A stretch of DNA of 50,971 nt from the sequence record NC_049823.1. The stretch is one strand, 5' to 3'. This stretch comes from Escherichia phage herni. A program made the position numbers and the translations under genes. Positions 9,957 to 47,310 of this stretch are shown here, piece by piece (position 1 is the first letter of the stretch; each line of letters opens with the position of its first letter). The notes beneath the pieces are model-generated. The model did no database searches. It was given only the letters and a program-made list of their open reading frames with translations, and had not been told where the DNA came from.

Positions 9957-10172
9957 ATGAAAGATTTTTTAAACGCTGCAACTTCCGGCACTGGCGGAGC
10001 GTCAATCACTGGCGCGGTAACTGGTCAAACAACTATTGCAATAGCCAGCTTCGTTTTGATGGCTGCATTTGGTATGTGGGGCGCTTATCTTCGCTGGCGT
10101 GATAGTAAGGCGCTACGTGACGCGCTTGAATGCGGTGATATTAAGAAAGCTATTGAGATCAGAGGTAAATAA
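9957..10172 (+). CDS. holin (likely pinholin partner of the SAR endolysin)
   Basis: 71 aa, hydrophobic segment [21 protein letters not shown], charged C-terminus; immediately upstream of and overlapping the endolysin start. Confidence 0.6.
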
Positions 10173-10660
10173 TGAGTATAAAACAAAGAGTGACCGCTGC
10201 GGCTTTTGGCGTTGCTCTTGCCCTTACTTCTCCGCTACTGGAGGAAATAGAAGGAGTAAAACATAAGCCGTACAAAGATATTGCTGGGGTATGGACGGTT
10301 TGCGCCGGAATAACTGGCCCTGACGTAATACAAGGCAAAACGTACACACAAAGAGAGTGCGATGCACTACTGGCGAAGCATATCAAGATCGCAAAGGATG
10401 AAGTTGATAAGCGTGTAAAGGTTGACATTCCTGATACAATGCGCGCAGCAATGTATTCATTCACATACAATGCTGGAACTGGAGCTTTTAGAAATTCAAC
10501 CATGCTTAAGCTGATTAATAACGGTCGTTATATGGAAGCGTGCGATCAGTTATGGAGATGGACAAAATACACCAATCCAAAAACAGGAAAGAAAGAAACG
10601 TCTAAAGGACTGCGCAACCGCCGCGCGGTGGAATTTAAATATTGCATTAAGGATCTGTAA
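10172..10660 (+). CDS. SAR endolysin (T4-type lysozyme fold with signal-anchor-release N-terminus)
   Basis: Weakly hydrophobic Gly/Ala-rich N-terminal segment [17 protein letters not shown] followed by E-x8-D-x5-T catalytic spacing ([19 protein letters not shown]). Confidence 0.8.
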
Positions 10661-10662
10661 TT

Positions 10663-11061
10663 ATGCGAAAGTTATCAATAATCGCTATCGCTGTTATTTT
10701 GTCTGGATGTTCAAGCGTTACGCCACTGACCGGATTAATAGGTAGCAAGCCGGAAATCACAGCACAGGCAGGATCGGAGAACGTAAAGCAGGCCGTTGGC
10801 GTTACCGCAAAGCAGGACACCAGCACAAAACAGGAAACTACAATAAAGGAATCTGCGGTTGATAAGGTGGACACTTCCAGCAAGAAGGATTTCACTACGT
10901 CAACCATTCATGCAAACACCATCAAGGCTGATAAAATCCAGGTTGTGCAGGGTGAGCAAAGGAAGTGGTACGATCCTATAATCTATTGCGCTGCAATTTT
11001 CAGTGGTCTTTTGTCAATGCTTTACTTTTCCTACCGCAAAGGCAACGAAAAGGAGGCTTAA
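10663..11061 (+). CDS. unimolecular spanin (outer-membrane lipoprotein with C-terminal transmembrane helix)
   Basis: Lipobox LSGC at N-terminus, Thr/Lys-rich linker, C-terminal helix IIYCAAIFSGLLSMLYF; architecture of the T1 gp11 class. Confidence 0.65.
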   Translation: MRKLSIIAIAVILSGCSSVTPLTGLIGSKPEITAQAGSENVKQAVGVTAKQDTSTKQETTIKESAVDKVDTSSKKDFTTSTIHANTIKADKIQVVQGEQRKWYDPIIYCAAIFSGLLSMLYFSYRKGNEKEA

Positions 11062-17934: not shown

Positions 17935-18115
17935 ATATACCCATAAAATCAATAAGTTAGTTATATATGTATTTATATTTGTTATTTACTGTTGTGCTTG
18001 TTCTGTGGGTATATGGTGGTGTGGTATTGTTTGTGGTGATATATATGTGTGATTGTATATTTTTTAATCAATTGTGATGTGTGGTGATTTTTGTATGTAT
18101 ATATATGGGTATGAA
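17935..18115. repeat. AT-rich then TG-rich low-complexity element (copy A), homologous to 47450-47650
   Basis: AAATCAATAAGTTAG..TATATAT.TATTTATATTTGTT core followed by (TG)n-like tracts. Confidence 0.5.
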
Positions 18116-18239
18116 GTAATCCTCCGTCAACCAAGTCAACAAGGTCATTTTTAACATAAAAACCAATGACTTAACTGAAGCATTTTGTTATCTTTAAACG
18201 CGCCACGTGCCAAAAATTGTTGTTAAAACACAAAATATA

Positions 18240-18268
18240 TTGACATGCAGGAAAGGCAAGGCAATAAT
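18240..18268 (+). promoter_or_regulatory. sigma70-like promoter (TTGACA, 17 nt, AATAAT)
   Basis: Near-consensus -35 and spacer length about 37 nt upstream of the gene at 18305. Confidence 0.5.
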
Positions 18269-18304
18269 TCATCCAGTTTAAACGCAACAAAAGGAGTAGA
18301 TGCT

Positions 18305-18790
18305 ATGAGCGAAGAAAATATTAGCACCATGTCGCGTAGTGAGTTTTGCGATATGCTTCGCGACTTGGGCGCGGCAATTGGTAGTGGTGAGCGTAATAAT
18401 GTATTCATGCCAGCACTTTTTTTGTGCGCTAATGTGGAGAACGGCGAAGCAATTACGGCATCGTACATGCGCCAAGTTGTCAACCGTGTGCCAGAAGTAA
18501 AGCAAAAAGGCGTGATCAGCATTAAGCGAAAGGTGACTGATGAGGGTGATGGCTTTGTGTTTACGCTCACCGAAGCCAAAAGCAAGCCTCGCGTTCTGAC
18601 TGGTGAAGAAATCGACGAGATCGCAGAAAAGCGCGCAGAGAAGGCGGTAAGCAAAATTCTTAATCACCTGGTAAACGTAATGCCAAATATCACAGACATG
18701 GAAGGCGACAAACTTGCTGGAGCGTGTGAGGCTATCGGGCGCTACCAGGATATGATTCGTAAACTCGCTGGAGGAAAAGAGGATGAATAA
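18305..18790 (+). CDS. hypothetical protein (161 aa), first gene of the rightward small-gene block
   Basis: Start at MSEENIS with AAGGAG Shine-Dalgarno; the track start 18245 lies in the promoter. Confidence 0.55.
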   Translation: MSEENISTMSRSEFCDMLRDLGAAIGSGERNNVFMPALFLCANVENGEAITASYMRQVVNRVPEVKQKGVISIKRKVTDEGDGFVFTLTEAKSKPRVLTGEEIDEIAEKRAEKAVSKILNHLVNVMPNITDMEGDKLAGACEAIGRYQDMIRKLAGGKEDE

Positions 18791-19043
18791 GGCATTAATT
18801 GGAGTTTTGATTGCAATTGCTACCCTGACCGGATGCGAAAAGGCATCTGAATCAACAGTTGTCGTAGGAGTGGAGTCAGATTTTAAAGTCGATCGCCTGT
18901 TTACTGTTGATGGATGCACTGCGTACCGATTCTATGACAACGGTCGAGCAATCTATTACACCAATTGTAAGGGAGCAACGGATAGCACATACCGCAGCGG
19001 CAAAAACGTAATGCACCAACAAGTCACAACAGATATGAAATAG
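18783..19043 (+). CDS. lipoprotein (86 aa)
   Basis: Signal peptide plus lipobox LTGC; stop embedded in the next motif copy. Confidence 0.6.
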   Translation: MNKALIGVLIAIATLTGCEKASESTVVVGVESDFKVDRLFTVDGCTAYRFYDNGRAIYYTNCKGATDSTYRSGKNVMHQQVTTDMK

Positions 19044-19085
19044 CACTTTTTGTTAAAATGCCAGGTGCGAATCCTGGCATAATAG
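19038..19085 (+). promoter_or_regulatory. conserved intergenic motif, hairpin GCCAGG-n7-CCTGGC, CATAAT
   Basis: Motif copy co-oriented with the gene at 19116. Confidence 0.45.
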
Positions 19086-19115
19086 CCTCATTGAAACGAG
19101 ATTGAGGAAAACAAA

Positions 19116-19301
19116 ATGGCACGTCGCATCACCAAAGACCTTAAAGTTCTTAACAAAGAAAACGTAGTTAAAATCCTGGTTGTCTGGGGATACAACGAAG
19201 AAACAGCAAAGCAGAAGGTAGAGGCAGGTTATGACCTGACTGTAAAAGCAATGCCAAACGACGACGCCAAAGGCATTGCAAACTATGTGGCTTTCTTTTA
19301 A
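19116..19301 (+). CDS. hypothetical protein (61 aa)
   Basis: ORF track; GAGGAAA Shine-Dalgarno. Confidence 0.5.
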   Translation: MARRITKDLKVLNKENVVKILVVWGYNEETAKQKVEAGYDLTVKAMPNDDAKGIANYVAFF

Positions 19302-19316
19302 TTAGCAGGTGAATAA

Positions 19317-19502
19317 ATGAAAACGAAATTAGTTCATAAATCAGAAATCAAGATCGGCGATACTGTGATTCACAACGGAGAGCTTAGAACTGTTGGCAAA
19401 GAGTCAATAAGCCACGATGAATTTATGGGAATCTTGTTGTTCGGTGACTCTTATCGGCTTGGTTATAAAATGGTTGAGCTTGTGGAAGAGGTAAAATTCT
19501 AA
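19317..19502 (+). CDS. hypothetical protein (61 aa)
   Basis: ORF track; AGGTGA Shine-Dalgarno. Confidence 0.5.
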   Translation: MKTKLVHKSEIKIGDTVIHNGELRTVGKESISHDEFMGILLFGDSYRLGYKMVELVEEVKF

Positions 19503-19600: not shown

Positions 19601-20548
19601 ATGTTAAAACTTGCTGACATTAAATTCCCGATCACCTTCGAATCTCGCGGCGTTGGTCATTTCATGTTTACCGACGAGAATACATGCACTAAGTTTAACG
19701 AATACGGAAATCCAGACGCTTCAACAATGGAGATTGAACACTTCATTGATGCGCATAACAAGCATTACAATTCGCTAAAAGACTACGGCTATGCAATGCC
19801 AGGATACACCTGTTTTCACTACAAGCAATATAAAGGCCAGGTGTTACCAATGCGCGCACAGGACATTGCGAGCGCTGCGACTTATGCGCGGGCAATTCAC
19901 GCGCCAGAGAATGCAGAGCCACTAGTAAAAATGCACGCCTGCGACTACAAAAAATTGTGGTGCTTAAGTGTGGATAACATCAAGTATCCGATCGTATTCC
20001 GCACGGTTGGTAACTCAACGATTCGCTATACGTCACCAGACAACGGCGTTTATAGCGATGGTACGAAATCAGAGTTGAAAGTTGATTTCTTTGTCAATGG
20101 TCACAACAAATTCAATCCACACAATGAAGAAGATAAGGTGTACTACGTGGAAGACATTACAAAACACTTGTTTGGGGAAACACCATTCGGCGGCGGAAAA
20201 ACGTCAATTCAAAAAATCATTGGCGATGAGATCCACAAGGCAGCCGTTGAAATGAAAGCGCCTGGAGGCTGTAAGATTGATAAAAGCGACCTTATCACCA
20301 TTCGTTCAAAGATTGGCGGAGTTGAATACGAGGGAAAAATTGAAAAAATGCCGCTCGGCGCTTCAATCATCGGCATCAAAGACGACAACGGCGATTGGCA
20401 TGATGTTTCTTTCCCGATCAAGCGTATCGAAGTGCTAGACGACTTGATTTGCCTCCTGGCGCATCATGGCAGCTATAAGAACAATCCGTTCTCCGCAGAG
20501 CTAAACATTAAGCGCGGAACGATGGTTAAGTGGAAGGTGAAAGTGTAA
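19601..20548 (+). CDS. hypothetical protein (315 aa)
   Basis: ORF track; AGGAGA Shine-Dalgarno; no family recognised. Confidence 0.6.
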   Translation: MLKLADIKFPITFESRGVGHFMFTDENTCTKFNEYGNPDASTMEIEHFIDAHNKHYNSLKDYGYAMPGYTCFHYKQYKGQVLPMRAQDIASAATYARAIHAPENAEPLVKMHACDYKKLWCLSVDNIKYPIVFRTVGNSTIRYTSPDNGVYSDGTKSELKVDFFVNGHNKFNPHNEEDKVYYVEDITKHLFGETPFGGGKTSIQKIIGDEIHKAAVEMKAPGGCKIDKSDLITIRSKIGGVEYEGKIEKMPLGASIIGIKDDNGDWHDVSFPIKRIEVLDDLICLLAHHGSYKNNPFSAELNIKRGTMVKWKVKV

Positions 20549-23678: not shown

Positions 23679-23923
23679 AACGAATCTTTAAACCTGAATG
23701 CCGGATCGTTTCTTGCACAGAATGCAAGATTTATTACCTGCAACGCCGCCGCGTTATCAGTGGAGATTGGGAATATCTGACGGATGACGCTTTCGGCTTT
23801 TGGGCTATGGAGTTCAATAGCTACAGCGAAGCGCGCGAATACGCTAAAAAGTTGCACAAGTTACGACCTTACAAACTGCGTTTGCTGGTTGTCAAAAAGT
23901 GCGACGTATGGGATCACGTATGA
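23660..23923 (+). CDS. hypothetical protein (87 aa)
   Basis: ORF track. Confidence 0.45.
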   Translation: MVFNALKRIFKPECRIVSCTECKIYYLQRRRVISGDWEYLTDDAFGFWAMEFNSYSEAREYAKKLHKLRPYKLRLLVVKKCDVWDHV

Positions 23924-24099
23924 AAAGAGTGATTATCACCTTTATTGCACTTATCGCTGGTTGCTACCTGGCTTATGGATATAGCGGCATTGTTGAGTCA
24001 ATCGGCGGATTGATTATCTTCATGGCTGGCGGATATGCTGGCTATGGTGACGGATTCAAAGACGGTAAGCGATACATGCTGACCGGGAAAAAGAAGTAA
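23920..24099 (+). CDS. small membrane protein (59 aa)
   Basis: Start at MKRVIITF overlapping the upstream stop; two Gly-rich hydrophobic helices. Confidence 0.4.
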   Translation: MKRVIITFIALIAGCYLAYGYSGIVESIGGLIIFMAGGYAGYGDGFKDGKRYMLTGKKK

Positions 24100-45600: not shown

Positions 45601-46061
45601 CATGGGCTGGCGTTAATGGAGTTGGCGCACAGTACGCAATGAAACTTGGATTGACATACAACGGTCAGAAGTACAGTGCTGGTATGGTGATGCAGCTTTC
45701 GCAGGGTTCATCCGGCCTTATTTCGCAGATTTTGTTTGATGCGAACAGGTTCGCTATCATGACAAGTTCGACCGGAGGGTCGTATACATTGCCTTTTGTG
45801 GTTGAAAATAACCAAGTTTTCATTAACAGCCTGTTAGTGAAAAACGGATCAATCACAAACGCCATGATCGGTAACTTCATCCAATCAAACAATTACGTTT
45901 GGAATCAAACAGGATGGAGGCTGGATAAAAACGGAACGTTTGAAAATTATGGTTCTACTCCTGGAGAGGGGGCCATGAAAATGACAAACGAAACGATCAG
46001 CGTTAGGGATGCAAACGGCGTTTTGCGTGTTCAGATTGGTAGGCTTACTGGTACGTGGTAA
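42636..46061 (+). CDS. host specificity / central tail fibre protein (lambda J-like)
   Basis: 1141 aa; position after the K/I-like genes; fibronectin-III-like segment; C-terminal heptad-like ETEAR repeats. Confidence 0.85.
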   Translation: MAENMITGSKGGSSKPYVPKEMEDNLISINKIKILLAVSDGECDPSFTLRDLYLDDVPVIADDGTVNYQGVKAEFRPGTQTQDYIQGFTDTSSEVTLARDITTSNPYVISVTNKTLSAIRIKMLMPTGIKQEDNGDLVGVKVTYAVDMAVDGDSYKEVLLDTIEGKTRSGYDRSRRIDLPAFNDRVLLRVRRVTADSASSRVTDLIKLQSYAEVIDAKFRYPLTGLVYVELDSELFPNQIPNISIKKKWKLINVPSNYDPVMREYHGSWDGTFKKAWSNNPAWVLYDIITNQRYGLDQRELGVQVDKWSLYEAAQYCDQKVPDGKGGTEPRYLCDVVIQSQIEAYQLIRDICSIFRGMSFWNGESLSIVIDKPRDPSYIFTNDNVVDGDFQYTTASEKSMYTQCNVTFDDEQNMYQQDVEGVFDTEAALRFGYNPTSITAIGCTRRSEANRRGRWILKTNLRSTTVNFATGLEGMIPSIGDVIAIADNFHSSNLKLNLSGRVMEVSGLQVFAPFKIDARPGDFIIINKPDGKPVKRTISKVSGDGKTIELNIGFGFEVKPDTVFAIDRTDIALQQYVVTSIGKGDDDDEFTYSITAVEYDPNKYDEIDYGVNIDDRPTSIVQPDTMAAPENVQISSYSRIVQGASVETMVVSWDKVPYASLYEMQWRKGDGNWLNTPQTANKEIEVEGIYSGNYQVRVRSVSASGSTSPWSRIVTASLTGKVGEPGAPVNLTASDNEVFGIRVKWGMPEGSGDTAYIELHQSPDGTAENSSLLTLIPYPQYEYWHGTLPAGHVVWYRIRSVDRIGNVSGWTDFVRGMASDDVEAVLGNILDKIFDTEAGKDLKENAIDSANKIKDQAQSIIQNALANDADVRIMRKENGKRKAEFRQSIQLIADETEARVTAMTQLKAEFDEEITSEVTRLDQAIATESETRATAIEELKSQIGDDIQGQLTRVEEAIASETEARVSADTALTAKFGDVESALTEKLDSWAGVNGVGAQYAMKLGLTYNGQKYSAGMVMQLSQGSSGLISQILFDANRFAIMTSSTGGSYTLPFVVENNQVFINSLLVKNGSITNAMIGNFIQSNNYVWNQTGWRLDKNGTFENYGSTPGEGAMKMTNETISVRDANGVLRVQIGRLTGTW

Positions 46062-46066
46062 AATCA

Positions 46067-46092
46067 AAGCGGGGCATTTGCCCCGCATTTAT
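46067..46092 (+). terminator. rho-independent terminator
   Basis: GCGGGGC-attt-GCCCCGC followed by ATTTAT. Confidence 0.5.
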
Positions 46093-46104
46093 GGAGGTTT
46101 AATA

Positions 46105-46410
46105 ATGGCTGAATATGGTGTTTCAACGTGGGATGCTAACGGGAAGTATAACAACTACGGAATCAAGCCAGTTTCCGTTGTTGGTGTCATTAGCCTTGCG
46201 GCTGGTCAGACAAGCGGATCGTGGAGCTTTAGCATTCCAAGTGGTTTTAAGGTTGGGTATGTTGTTTCGCTTGATGAGGGTGCTAGAGGGGTTGGAAGGG
46301 AAATAGTAGCATCTGGAAACACAATAAGAATCAGTCCTACATCTTCAGTTGGTGCAAATAGATATTCTTCTTCAAAGTGTGAGTTAGTTGTTTTTCTTGA
46401 GAGGGCTTAA
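46105..46410 (+). CDS. hypothetical protein (101 aa), MAEYG paralogue 1
   Basis: Start at MAEYGVSTWDANGKY with GGAGG Shine-Dalgarno. Confidence 0.5.
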   Translation: MAEYGVSTWDANGKYNNYGIKPVSVVGVISLAAGQTSGSWSFSIPSGFKVGYVVSLDEGARGVGREIVASGNTIRISPTSSVGANRYSSSKCELVVFLERA

Positions 46411-46411
46411 A

Positions 46412-47053
46412 ATGGCTGAATATGGAGCAATGTTATCTTTATCAAATGGGAATCCATTTATCACACCAAAATCAACGCCATTTTGCTTATATGGCAAGTA
46501 CACTTATTCATCTTCTGGCACTTCTGCCTATCATAGCGCAAGCGCAAATATACCATTGAATCAATCTTATCCATGTATGGCATTTATAAAAACAACAAAC
46601 ACACAGCAGCCAACTGCATTAATAGCTTACAGGAATGGTGGCAACATTTATGTAAACGGAGGCAATCCATACGGGCAATCATTTACAATGACTGTTTATA
46701 TATTTGCCATATTCCCTCAAACTCTACCCAAATATGGTATGGCTATATGGGATGCAAGCGGCAAGTTGGTTTTAACTAATGAAAGCAGGGTGCTAACAGA
46801 TCTTGTTACAATTGGTACTCCTGGTTCTTCAGGTGGAACGAATATAGATCAAACGTTATCTGGTTCTTATGCCGTTTGCCCTTCAAGGCTTGGTGCGGTT
46901 GTAGGCATGGGTGCTTCTGACATATATACATCATGCAGGTATGATGGTTCAAGCACAAGGATAGGTGCAGCAAGGACAACGCCAGGAACAGGATCTATAA
47001 CAAATAACGGAAATTCAATAATTGCAATAAGGACTGATATTTACGACCAATGA
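46412..47053 (+). CDS. hypothetical Ser/Thr/Gly-rich protein (213 aa), MAEYG paralogue 2
   Basis: Start at MAEYGAMLSL; internal YGMAIWDASGKL resembles the N-terminus of the previous gene. Confidence 0.5.
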   Translation: MAEYGAMLSLSNGNPFITPKSTPFCLYGKYTYSSSGTSAYHSASANIPLNQSYPCMAFIKTTNTQQPTALIAYRNGGNIYVNGGNPYGQSFTMTVYIFAIFPQTLPKYGMAIWDASGKLVLTNESRVLTDLVTIGTPGSSGGTNIDQTLSGSYAVCPSRLGAVVGMGASDIYTSCRYDGSSTRIGAARTTPGTGSITNNGNSIIAIRTDIYDQ

Positions 47054-47082: not shown

Positions 47083-47310
47083 TTACATACTGCAATCAGC
47101 GTTTTTAAAGTTATCAATACTTACCCACTGAAAATTAAACGGATAGCCAGCCTTAACAAGAGTGCGGTCGCCAACTCGTTTTACTCCAAAAATAGCAACT
47201 GAATACTGCATACCGCTATTTTCATAAATAGCCGTGCATTCACGCTTAGGCATATTTGCGCAACCAGTCAGGGTTGCGGCTGCAATCAAAACGGCGATTA
47301 ATTTTTTCAT
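47083..47310 (-). CDS. small outer-membrane lipoprotein, possibly Cor-like superinfection exclusion protein
   Basis: 75 aa; signal peptide with lipobox LTGC; size and position next to tail genes as for Cor-type proteins; functional assignment is inference. Confidence 0.45.
   Translation of the reverse strand: MKKLIAVLIAAATLTGCANMPKRECTAIYENSGMQYSVAIFGVKRVGDRTLVKAGYPFNFQWVSIDNFKNADCSM

What the first reader, a model, noticed from the sequence alone, without database searches (positions are those of the whole stretch)
18783..19043. Second small lipoprotein as first-wave early gene
An 86-aa lipoprotein (lipobox LTGC) is the second gene behind the strong early promoter at 18240. Early phage lipoproteins often block receptors or modify the envelope.
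Basis: inference. Interest (0 to 1): 0.35.

Follow-up and report, generated by a model that had tools for sequence, protein, structure and literature searches.

The report
Early phage lipoprotein of unknown function
A T1-like coliphage encodes, behind a strong host-type promoter, a small lipoprotein that is probably anchored in the outer membrane; it belongs to a large uncharacterised phage family (DUF4884) and is not the phage's receptor-blocking lipoprotein, which lies elsewhere in the genome.

Summary
Bases 18783-19043 (+) encode an 86-aa protein with a textbook lipoprotein signal peptide (MNKALIGVLIAIATLTGC). It is the second gene, with an 8-nt overlap, behind the best sigma-70-like promoter in the window (18240-18268).

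The window is a complete Hanrivervirus genome (Drexlerviridae, T1-like). The gene is under purifying selection (pN/pS 0.1-0.2). It belongs to DUF4884 (PF16225), a large family of ~80-95-aa lipoproteins found mostly in phages and prophages of Proteobacteria and Bacteroidota. These genes usually sit among early or nin-type accessory genes and have no conserved neighbour.

The suggested receptor-blocking role is not supported for the phage's own receptor:
- The phage has a genuine Cor exclusion lipoprotein beside its tail-tip/receptor-binding genes (47083-47310, minus strand).
- Near-identical DUF4884 genes occur in phages with different receptor modules, and Rtp carries the family alongside the LptD blocker Rtp45.
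- Two sister phages with the same Cor lack the gene.
- The mature domain shows no homology to Llp, Cor or Rtp45, and its confident six-strand beta model matches no solved fold.

The function remains unknown. My best inference (about 0.35) is a dispensable envelope factor that acts after adsorption and independently of the receptor. Interest is modest.

The parts
18240..18268 (+). Sigma-70-like promoter: -35 TTGACA (18240-18245), 17-nt spacer, -10 AATAAT (18263-18268).
   Evidence: It matches 11 of 12 positions. It is one of three sites in the window that reach that score and the only one with a 17-nt spacer. A promoter is conserved at this position in Hanrivervirus, Warwickvirus and Rtp. Its activity and timing are inferred, not measured.
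18305..18790 (+). First gene of the unit: 161-aa DUF7174 protein of unknown function, with no signal peptide. AAGGAG at 18291-18296.
   Evidence: Pfam PF23796 at E 3.5e-46 and phrog_4841 at E 8e-28. The same DUF7174-DUF4884 gene pair occurs in Rtp (with the tiny annotated rtp2 ORF between them) and in tonnikala.
18770..18774 (+). GGAGG ribosome-binding site, 8 nt upstream of the lipoprotein ATG and inside the end of the upstream gene.
   Evidence: Read directly from the sequence. The 8-nt overlap between the start codon and the upstream stop codon suggests translational coupling; this is an inference.
18783..18836 (+). Lipoprotein signal peptide (residues 1-17) plus the lipidated Cys18. Lipobox L-T-G-C at 18825-18836.
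   Evidence: It fits the PS51257-type pattern. The lipobox is conserved in over 90% of close homologues and a lipobox-type Cys is present in 137 of 145 distant representatives.
18837..19043 (+). Mature DUF4884 domain (residues 19-86) and stop codon. Residue +2 is Glu, not Asp. The conserved core is RLFTVDGCTAYRFYDNGRAIYYTNCKG, with near-invariant Cys45 (18915-18917) and Cys62 (18966-18968).
   Evidence: Alignments A1-A3. The AlphaFold2 model has pLDDT 88 and pTM 0.70 and shows six beta strands. Profile search found 1417 representative clusters at E<=1e-3. pN/pS is 0.09-0.20.
19058..19083 (+). Hairpin AUGCCAGG-7 nt-CCUGGCAU (19058-19080), overlapping an extended -10-like motif TGGCATAAT (19075-19083). 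It marks the 3' boundary of the two-gene unit.
   Evidence: Folding energy is -16.2 kcal/mol, z -2.3. There is no T-run, so the terminator scan did not report it; the G29-2 record annotates it as a terminator. CTGG.ATAAT is invariant across three genera, including Rtp, where the hairpin itself is not conserved. This fits a downstream promoter better than a terminator.

Best explanation
**What it is (confidence about 0.85-0.9).** The gene encodes a DUF4884-family lipoprotein precursor.

*Inferred from the sequence.* Host RNA polymerase transcribes it, together with the upstream DUF7174 gene, from the strong promoter at 18240, soon after infection. The precursor is exported by Sec, lipidated at Cys18 and cleaved by signal peptidase II. 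[quoted passage not shown] There a roughly 15-residue tether holds a compact domain of about 50 residues in the periplasm.

*Shown by modelling and alignment.* That domain is predicted to be a six-strand beta structure. It carries a near-invariant Cys45/Cys62 pair that probably forms a disulfide.

**What it does (inferred, confidence about 0.35).** It is a dispensable, stand-alone accessory factor that changes the envelope of the infected cell independently of the phage's own receptor. Most likely it interferes with a step after adsorption that many competing phages share, such as tail-tip or peptidoglycan penetration or DNA transit through the periplasm. In that case it would complement the receptor-specific Cor lipoprotein encoded beside the receptor-binding genes.
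For: **Identity as a lipoprotein**
- Signal peptide and lipobox are present.
- A lipobox-type Cys is conserved in 137 of 145 distant representatives, and residue +2 is mostly not Asp.
- The Cys pair is invariant among close homologues and at least 90% conserved across the wider family.
- All hosts and organisms identified are diderms, namely Proteobacteria and Bacteroidota.

**Early expression**
- The promoter is the best in the window and is conserved at this position.
- In temperate relatives the gene sits among the early genes, just after the replication or recombination genes: after O/P in Pantoea, before NinB in Cupriavidus, after RusA in Sphingobacterium, and after primase/DnaB in a Bacteroidota-type gut phage contig.

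**Accessory, stand-alone gene**
- grams and JLBYU09 lack it.
- A natural 59-aa deletion variant exists.
- Across 30 lineages (clusters at 70% identity or more), no neighbour family within 3 kb is shared by more than 3 lineages.
- It was not found in plasmids or E. coli genomes.

**Independent of the receptor**
- The phage has its own Cor cassette.
- The gene is uncoupled from the RBP locus in KarlJaspers and FritzSarasin.
- It coexists with Rtp45 in Rtp.

**Conserved target implied**
- The core LFTVDGC(T/K)VYRFxDxG..YFTNCxG is nearly invariant from Bacteroidota to Proteobacteria. In the modelled strands, consecutive residues are conserved, so both sheet faces are likely constrained.
Against: - There are no functional data for any family member.
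- There is no sequence or fold similarity to any characterised exclusion protein or any solved structure.
- The strong core conservation could reflect folding constraints of a tiny disulfide-bonded domain rather than a conserved ligand.
- At least one Bacteroidota copy lies among housekeeping genes with no phage genes nearby, which allows a cellular role.
- In temperate phages a nin-type position means it is not expressed from the prophage, unlike classical lysogen-expressed exclusion genes.
- Early timing is inferred, not measured.
Confidence: 0.35

Rival explanations
1. It is a receptor-blocking exclusion lipoprotein that works like Llp, Cor or Rtp45. It would bind the periplasmic face of an outer-membrane protein, either the phage's own receptor or one used by competitors, and prevent phage binding from outside.
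For: It has the same general build as the known blockers: a roughly 60-70-residue mature, beta-rich lipoprotein with a disulfide, probably outer-membrane anchored and made early. Its signal peptide is 13/16 identical to that of the phage's Cor. Two Bacteroidales copies lie 1-2.5 kb from TonB-dependent receptor genes.
Against: - The cognate blocker, Cor, is already present beside the RBP genes.
- The gene's sequence does not track the receptor module, and it coexists with Rtp45 in Rtp.
- It is absent from sister phages that have the same Cor.
- Its mature domain has no homology to Llp, Cor or Rtp45.
- Its core is near-invariant across phyla whose outer-membrane receptors differ.
- Three further Bacteroidota-type contexts have no TonB-dependent receptor gene nearby.
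Confidence: 0.15
2. It is a host-takeover or counter-defence factor. It would act on a conserved host envelope machine (peptidoglycan synthases or hydrolases, Tol-Pal, BAM, Lpt or TonB) to help the infecting phage itself. Possible effects are stabilising the envelope until lysis, stopping division, or disabling an envelope-located defence.
For: - It occupies an early position next to other small takeover-type genes.
- Its conserved core fits a target shared by all diderms.
- It is spread across unrelated phage types: siphoviruses, myoviruses and very large (jumbo) phages.
Against: - It is dispensable in close relatives grown on the same laboratory host.
- No partner, domain or motif points to any particular machine.
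- No toxicity or phenotype data exist.
Confidence: 0.2
3. It is a lysis accessory: a spanin-like component, or a periplasmic regulator or inhibitor of the endolysin.
For: There are weak hits to spanin models (PF17531 at E 0.29, phrog_1267 at E 0.16). It is a probable outer-membrane lipoprotein, as o-spanins are.
Against: - Those hits cover only the signal peptide.
- The phage has its own lysis cassette, with an endolysin (10172..10660) and a spanin lipoprotein (10663..11061, phrog_1804 at E 4e-48) 8 kb away.
- The gene has no C-terminal transmembrane segment and no adjacent i-spanin, and in no lineage does it sit in a lysis cassette.
- It is driven by an early-type promoter.
Confidence: 0.05
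4. It is not a functional lipoprotein. The lipobox would be fortuitous, or the ORF a decaying remnant.
For: Pattern matches to the lipobox rule also occur in spurious ORFs of this window. A truncated variant exists in nature. The score against the Pfam DUF4884 model is below the gathering cut-off (25.1 versus 30 bits).
Against: - pN/pS is 0.09-0.20.
- The gene has a good ribosome-binding site.
- There are 1417 representative clusters with the same architecture, and a lipobox-type Cys is present in 137 of the 145 top representatives examined.
- The structure prediction is confident.
Confidence: 0.02

Closest known systems
DUF4884 (Pfam PF16225) / PHROG 6360: uncharacterised small lipoproteins, including Rtp gene rtp3 and BASEL bas02_0065
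   Same: - It is homologous over its full length.
- The architecture is the same: signal peptide, lipobox, short linker, LFTVDGCxxYRF...YFTNCxG core with a Cys pair.
- In Drexlerviridae it holds the same genomic slot, after DUF7174.
   Different: Nothing essential differs. This copy lacks the second CGKNC Cys pair that many proteobacterial prophage members carry. It also scores just below Pfam's gathering threshold. The family has no assigned function.
Cor (T1, phi80, N15; phrog_1119), a FhuA-directed superinfection-exclusion lipoprotein
   Same: Both are small phage lipoproteins, probably outer-membrane anchored. Their signal peptides are nearly identical within this phage (13/16).
   Different: - The mature domains are unrelated.
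- Cor lies beside the RBP genes and co-varies with them; this gene does neither.
- This phage encodes both.
Llp of phage T5 (PDB 8A60, 7QJF), which binds the periplasmic face of FhuA
   Same: Both are early-expressed lipoproteins with mature parts of about 60-70 residues that are beta-rich and carry a Cys pair (a disulfide in Llp, probable here), and both belong to lytic siphoviruses.
   Different: - Only the signal peptide aligns in the profile comparison.
- Foldseek against the PDB gives no match better than E about 1.
- llp is linked to the RBP gene oad; this rests on my own knowledge, not a tool result.
Rtp45 of phage Rtp (PDB 9RPS), which binds LptDE-LptM from the periplasm and blocks RBP binding (PMC12685063)
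   Same: It is another small disulfide-containing exclusion lipoprotein of Drexlerviridae.
   Different: There is no homology beyond the signal peptide. Rtp encodes both rtp45, next to its RBP gene rtp44, and the DUF4884 gene rtp3, at the opposite end of the genome.
T4 Spackle (Sp) and Imm, and the lipoprotein Ltp of Streptococcus phage TP-J34: receptor-independent exclusion factors that act after adsorption. This comparison rests on my own knowledge.
   Same: This is a functional analogy only: early or constitutive envelope proteins that block a post-adsorption step and are not linked to receptor specificity. It is the model I favour.
   Different: No sequence relationship was detected in the family libraries searched, and no fold relationship in the PDB. 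Sp is a soluble helical periplasmic protein, Imm is an inner-membrane protein, and Ltp comes from a Gram-positive host.

Membership tests
Bacterial lipoprotein precursor (Lgt/LspA substrate; PROSITE PS51257-type signal) | A positively charged n-region, an uncharged hydrophobic h-region, a lipobox [LVI][ASTVI][GAS]C, and the Cys at position 15-35. | tested here: met
   K3; V8-A13 uncharged; L15-T16-G17-C18.
Bacterial lipoprotein precursor (Lgt/LspA substrate; PROSITE PS51257-type signal) | The lipobox Cys is conserved among homologues. | tested here: met
   Over 90% in alignment A1 and invariant in A2; 137 of 145 distant representatives.
Bacterial lipoprotein precursor (Lgt/LspA substrate; PROSITE PS51257-type signal) | Actual diacylglyceryl modification, signal peptidase II cleavage, and outer-membrane localisation. 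| not testable with these tools
   This needs globomycin sensitivity, palmitate labelling and membrane fractionation. Outer-membrane sorting is inferred only from Glu (not Asp) at +2.
DUF4884 (PF16225) | A score at or above Pfam's gathering threshold (30 bits). | tested here: not met
   25.1 bits, E 1.5e-5, matching only residues 32-60. The short 49-position model covers only part of the core.
DUF4884 (PF16225) | Continuous homology to proteins that carry the domain. | tested here: met
   - All 38 close hits, and the 120 hits listed for each of the two profile searches, carry a precomputed PF16225 domain.
- A 97%-identical protein (P0001) carries it.
- GenBank annotates the orthologues in phiE31-2 and Henu8 as DUF4884.
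Cor superinfection-exclusion family (phrog_1119) | Sequence homology of the mature domain. | tested here: not met
   No phrog_1119 hit. BLASTP and hhalign align only the signal peptide.
Cor superinfection-exclusion family (phrog_1119) | Location next to the J / RBP genes, and co-variation with them. | tested here: not met
   The gene lies about 24 kb upstream of the start of J (42636) and about 27 kb from the RBP/Cor locus. It is uncoupled from the RBP locus in KarlJaspers and FritzSarasin.
Llp (T5) and Rtp45 (Rtp) receptor-blocking lipoproteins | Sequence or fold homology. | tested here: not met
   hhalign matches only the signal peptide. No PDB fold match has E<1, in a library whose cut-off date is later than the 9RPS publication.
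Llp (T5) and Rtp45 (Rtp) receptor-blocking lipoproteins | Binding to the periplasmic face of an outer-membrane receptor, with loss of phage adsorption. | not testable with these tools
   This needs adsorption and efficiency-of-plating assays, co-purification, or multimer modelling.
Spanins (o-spanin or u-spanin) | A gene in the lysis cassette, embedded in or adjacent to an i-spanin, or carrying a C-terminal transmembrane segment (u-spanin). | tested here: not met
   The lysis cassette is at 10172-11061 and has its own spanin. This gene has no C-terminal hydrophobic segment, and the spanin-model hits are limited to the signal peptide.

The most novel reading that the evidence does not exclude
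DUF4884 could be a widespread family of phage-encoded periplasmic lipoproteins whose conserved beta-domain binds one envelope component, or one phage-delivery component, common to diderm bacteria. If so, it would provide receptor-independent superinfection exclusion or another envelope takeover function across Proteobacteria and Bacteroidota. That would be a generic second layer alongside receptor-specific blockers such as Cor, Llp and Rtp45.
Probability: 0.25. Interest if true: 0.6.

Novelty: new member of a known kind. Interest (0 to 1): 0.3.

Why it matters
Small phage lipoproteins are the best understood means by which lytic phages of Gram-negative hosts protect an infected cell and their progeny; Llp, Cor and Rtp45 are the examples. 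All three are tied to a specific receptor.

This gene shows that T1-like phages often carry a second, unrelated lipoprotein that is not tied to the receptor. Its family is large: 1417 clusters at 50% identity. It occurs in unrelated phages of two phyla, yet it has never been studied.

If its target is a conserved envelope step, it would be a broadly acting exclusion or takeover factor. It would also be a handy probe of that step, and it could affect how phages interfere with each other in cocktails. If instead it has only a subtle fitness role, it is one more dispensable accessory gene.

Tried and rejected
- **Family libraries.** Pfam, NCBIfam, PHROGs and PADLOC gave only DUF4884 or unknown-function families. 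The weak spanin and lipoprotein hits are signal-peptide artefacts.
- **Structure.** The second, from 112 sequences and without the signal peptide, was good (pLDDT 88). Foldseek against the PDB gave nothing better than E about 1 for either model, and the PliC/OspA-type rows are not significant. BFVD returned only family members. A PDB sequence-profile search was empty.
- **Paralogy with Cor.** Rejected: only the signal peptides match.
- **DUF7174 as a functional partner.** The pairing holds only within Drexlerviridae. Serratia phage MTx has a gene of the same size upstream, but it is not DUF7174. The neighbour analysis over 30 lineages found no conserved partner.
- **Link to TonB-dependent receptors.** Two Bacteroidales loci suggested one. 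Three further Bacteroidota-type contexts did not reproduce it, so I treat it as chance.
- **GTDB genome scans.** The scan with the wide alignment failed for lack of a conserved stretch. The scan with Drexlerviridae-specific patterns found nothing. A third alignment worked.
- **Other collections.** There were no matches in E. coli genomes (DNA search) or in plasmids (protein search).
- **Literature.** Searches found no functional study of DUF4884 or rtp3 and no Drexlerviridae transcriptome. One search was malformed.
- **The downstream 'terminator'.** The site annotated in G29-2 has no T-run, and it overlaps a conserved extended -10 motif. I therefore do not count it as a terminator.
Full report
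**What the window is.** The 50,971-bp window is essentially a complete genome of a T1-like siphovirus of the genus Hanrivervirus (Drexlerviridae, Tempevirinae). Bases 18100-19400 are 96% identical to phage PGN590 and 93-95% identical to JakobBernoulli and vB_EcoS_G29-2 (taxonomy).

**The observation.** The ORF at 18783..19043 (+) encodes the 86-aa protein MNKALIGVLIAIATLTGCEKASESTVVVGVESDFKVDRLFTVDGCTAYRFYDNGRAIYYTNCKGATDSTYRSGKNVMHQQVTTDMK.
- It has a GGAGG 8 nt upstream, and its ATG overlaps the stop codon of the preceding gene (18305..18790) by 8 nt.
- The N-terminus is a canonical lipoprotein signal: Lys3, a 12-residue hydrophobic stretch, and the lipobox L-T-G-C with Cys18.
- My six-frame scan with the PROSITE-type rule gave 7 start-codon matches in 6 ORFs. 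Three of these are genuine lipoprotein genes; the others are doubtful or spurious. The pattern alone is therefore weak evidence.
- Conservation settles the point. The lipobox and the following Glu-Lys are kept in over 90% of 31 close homologues. Cys18 is invariant in a 102-sequence family alignment. A lipobox-type Cys precedes the core in 137 of 145 distant representatives.
- Against phiE31-2 and G29-2, pN/pS is 0.20 and 0.09.

**The promoter.**
- TTGACA-17 nt-AATAAT at 18240-18268 matches 11 of 12 consensus positions.
- Only three sites on either strand of the window reach that score, and this is the only one with a 17-nt spacer.
- It lies in the divergent intergenic region that separates a leftward gene block from the long rightward arm. 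That arm runs through about 8 kb of small genes and then into the terminase, head and tail genes.
- Hanriverviruses conserve the promoter. Warwickvirus tonnikala has TTGACA-16-TATAAT at the same position, and Rtp has TTGATA-16-TAATAT.
- 'Second gene behind a strong promoter' is therefore correct. 'Early' is a reasonable inference for a phage that has no RNA polymerase of its own, but I found no transcript data.
- 'First-wave' has no basis; two-step DNA entry is a T5 feature.

**Family.**
- Pfam gives DUF4884 (PF16225) just below threshold, at 25.1 bits against a cut-off of 30. PHROGs gives phrog_6360, function unknown, at E 1e-11.
- A single-sequence search found 38 clusters of 59-95 aa (nearly all 84-95 aa). 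Most with long contigs are on phage-sized contigs of about 50 kb, and all carry a precomputed PF16225 domain.
- A profile of these sequences, searched against 1.84 billion representatives, found 1417 clusters at E<=1e-3 and 383 at E<=1e-10.
- Members share one architecture: signal peptide, lipobox, a 10-20-residue linker, then a core [FY]xVxxLF(T/E)xDGC(T/K)(V/A)YRFxDxGxxxY(F/Y)TNCxG. Many also have a second Cys pair (CGKNC) near the C-terminus.
- Residue +2 is mostly Glu, Ala or Thr. It is Asp in only 10 of 137, so outer-membrane sorting is the default expectation.

**Where the family lives.**
- In Drexlerviridae it always follows DUF7174 at the head of the rightward arm (in Rtp with the tiny annotated rtp2 ORF between them). 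This holds for Hanrivervirus, Warwickvirus and Rtpvirus, where it is gene rtp3.
- It also occurs among small genes of Pseudomonas phage Dolphis, Serratia myovirus MTx, very large (jumbo) Xanthomonas phages, and a large (361-kb) phage-like contig.
- Bacterial-genome copies in Pantoea, Cupriavidus, Pseudomonas, Allorhizobium and Sphingobacterium are in prophages. They typically sit just after the replication or recombination genes, in a nin-like position: after O/P, before NinB, or after RusA. A Bacteroidota-type gut phage contig shows the same placement, after primase/DnaB.
- One Bacteroidota copy is chromosomal, with no phage genes nearby.
- Among 69 loci grouped into 30 lineages, no neighbouring gene family within 3 kb is shared by more than three lineages. 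The gene is thus a stand-alone cassette.
- It is never in a lysis cassette and never next to tail-fibre or RBP genes.
- No homologue was found in PLSDB plasmids, and the E. coli genome search at DNA level found nothing.

**Is it the receptor blocker?** No.
- The window has its own Cor cassette immediately downstream of the J-like gene. It comprises phrog_557 and phrog_425 proteins at 46009-47053, and Cor at 47083..47310 (-). Cor matches phrog_1119 at E 3e-28 and is 100% identical to the RefSeq 'Cor superinfection exclusion protein' of G29-2 and egaa. A recent paper associates this arrangement with FhuA-targeting Drexlerviridae (PMC13164509).
- The BASEL study matched allelic variants of this locus downstream of gpJ to each terminal receptor. 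It also cites earlier suggestions that the cognate exclusion genes lie there (PMC8594841).
- KarlJaspers and FritzSarasin have DUF4884 proteins 98.8% and 90.7% identical to this one. Their post-J locus is different: three minus-strand genes, no homologue of the window's 221-aa protein, and an exclusion-position lipoprotein only about 35% identical.
- Rtp encodes both rtp3 (DUF4884) and Rtp45. Cryo-EM has shown that Rtp45 binds LptDE-LptM and blocks RBP binding (PMC12685063).
- Conversely, grams and JLBYU09 keep a 96%-identical Cor but lack the DUF4884 gene and the two small genes after it.
- Sequence comparisons with Cor, Llp and Rtp45 align only the signal peptides. My recalled Llp sequence was verified as identical to PDB 8A60 chain B.

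**Structure.**
- With a 112-sequence alignment and the signal peptide removed, AlphaFold2 gives a confident model: pLDDT 88.2, pTM 0.70. It has six beta strands in sequence.
- The most conserved residues lie on strands 2-4 and their turns. Strands 5-6 vary apart from a Gly-Lys turn.
- Foldseek finds no solved structure better than E about 1, and the viral predicted-structure library returns only family members.
- The near-invariant Cys45/Cys62 pair fits an oxidising, periplasmic location. The disulfide itself is an inference.

**Mechanism.**
- *Shown:* a conserved, selected lipoprotein gene behind a strong, conserved host-type promoter. It belongs to a phage-borne, stand-alone, dispensable family and is independent of the receptor module.
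- *Inferred:* early expression, outer-membrane anchoring, and the disulfide.
- *Favoured model (about 0.35):* a receptor-independent envelope factor, most plausibly blocking a post-adsorption step common to many phages. This is analogous in logic, though not in sequence, to T4 Sp/Imm or to the Ltp lipoprotein. The arguments for it are the early slot, the patchy distribution typical of competition genes, and a core conserved across phyla whose surface receptors differ.
- *Rivals:* a blocker of some other receptor (0.15), a host-takeover or counter-defence factor acting on a conserved envelope machine (0.2), a lysis accessory (0.05), and a non-functional ORF (0.02).
- About 0.2 is left for functions I have not thought of.

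**Verdict.** The gene is ordinary in kind, being one more small phage lipoprotein. Public records already annotate it as a hypothetical or DUF4884 protein. The specific suggestion that it blocks the phage's receptor is contradicted. What is mildly interesting is the size and breadth of this unstudied family and its independence from receptor specificity. A simple plasmid-expression screen against a phage panel would test the main question.

Noticed in passing
window 47083-47310 (-), with 46009-47053 (+): This is the phage's true Cor superinfection-exclusion lipoprotein (75 aa, phrog_1119 at E 3e-28). It sits with the two upstream 'outer membrane / membrane-associated' genes (phrog_557, phrog_425) directly after the J-like gene. 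That is the cassette reported for FhuA-targeting T1-like phages, so FhuA is the likely terminal receptor.
   Followed up: partly
window 18783-18836 versus 47260-47310 (-): The signal peptides of the DUF4884 protein and of Cor are 13/16 identical (KALIGVLIAIATLTGC versus KKLIAVLIAAATLTGC), while the mature parts are unrelated. This could reflect a shared constraint or exchange of signal-peptide segments.
   Followed up: no
window 17945-18240: This divergent intergenic region is AT-rich (27-31% GC). It contains an almost C-free G/T-rich stretch (GC skew +0.70 at 17975-18124) and two short tandem repeats (17952-17988, 18126-18147). The GenBank records of G29-2 and Rtp start their numbering just to the left of it. 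It may be a regulatory, origin or packaging-related region.
   Followed up: no
window 19058-19083: The hairpin annotated as a terminator in G29-2 has no T-run and overlaps TGGCATAAT, an extended -10-like motif. Its core, CTGG.ATAAT, is invariant in Hanrivervirus, Warwickvirus and Rtp, and Rtp does not conserve the hairpin. It is probably the promoter of the next small-gene unit (19116 onward).
   Followed up: partly
window 18783-19502; loci L029 and L030: The Hanriverviruses grams and JLBYU09 lack a cassette of three small genes: DUF4884, DUF7421 (19116-19301) and phrog_3623 (19317-19502). In those phages DUF7174 is followed directly by the homologue of 19601-20548. JLBYU41 shares similarity only up to about 19058, so the hairpin region looks like a recombination boundary.
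   Followed up: partly
protein P0028 (homologue on about 51-kb phage contigs): This is a natural 59-aa variant in which residues 19-45 are deleted between the two ..TGC / ..DGC codon repeats. The deletion fuses the lipobox directly to TAYRF and removes one Cys of the conserved pair. It shows that the gene can decay.
   Followed up: no
window 10172-11061 (+): The lysis cassette holds an endolysin (phrog_7) followed by a 132-aa lipoprotein (MRKLSIIAIAVILSGC...) that matches phrog_1804 'Rz-like spanin'.
   Followed up: partly
window 23920-24099 (+): A 59-aa ORF (MKRVIITFIALIAGCYLAYGYSG...) also fits the lipobox pattern. It continues with a second hydrophobic stretch and has no PHROG or significant Pfam hit. 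It is more likely a small membrane protein than a lipoprotein.
   Followed up: no
loci L024 (2451-4922) and L025 (229-2262): In two Bacteroidales metagenome-assembled genomes the DUF4884 gene lies 1-2.5 kb from TonB-dependent receptor genes (Plug domain). Three other Bacteroidota-type contexts did not show this: two are phage or prophage and one is among housekeeping genes. The proximity is probably chance, given how abundant these receptors are in that phylum.
   Followed up: yes
phage collection hits H43-H45 and H109-H119: Several records labelled 'Campylobacter phage' (for example A14a, E6, C4) carry near-identical Hanrivervirus genes: 83% for DUF4884 and 95% for Cor. They look like coliphage genomes deposited under a Campylobacter host label.
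   Followed up: no
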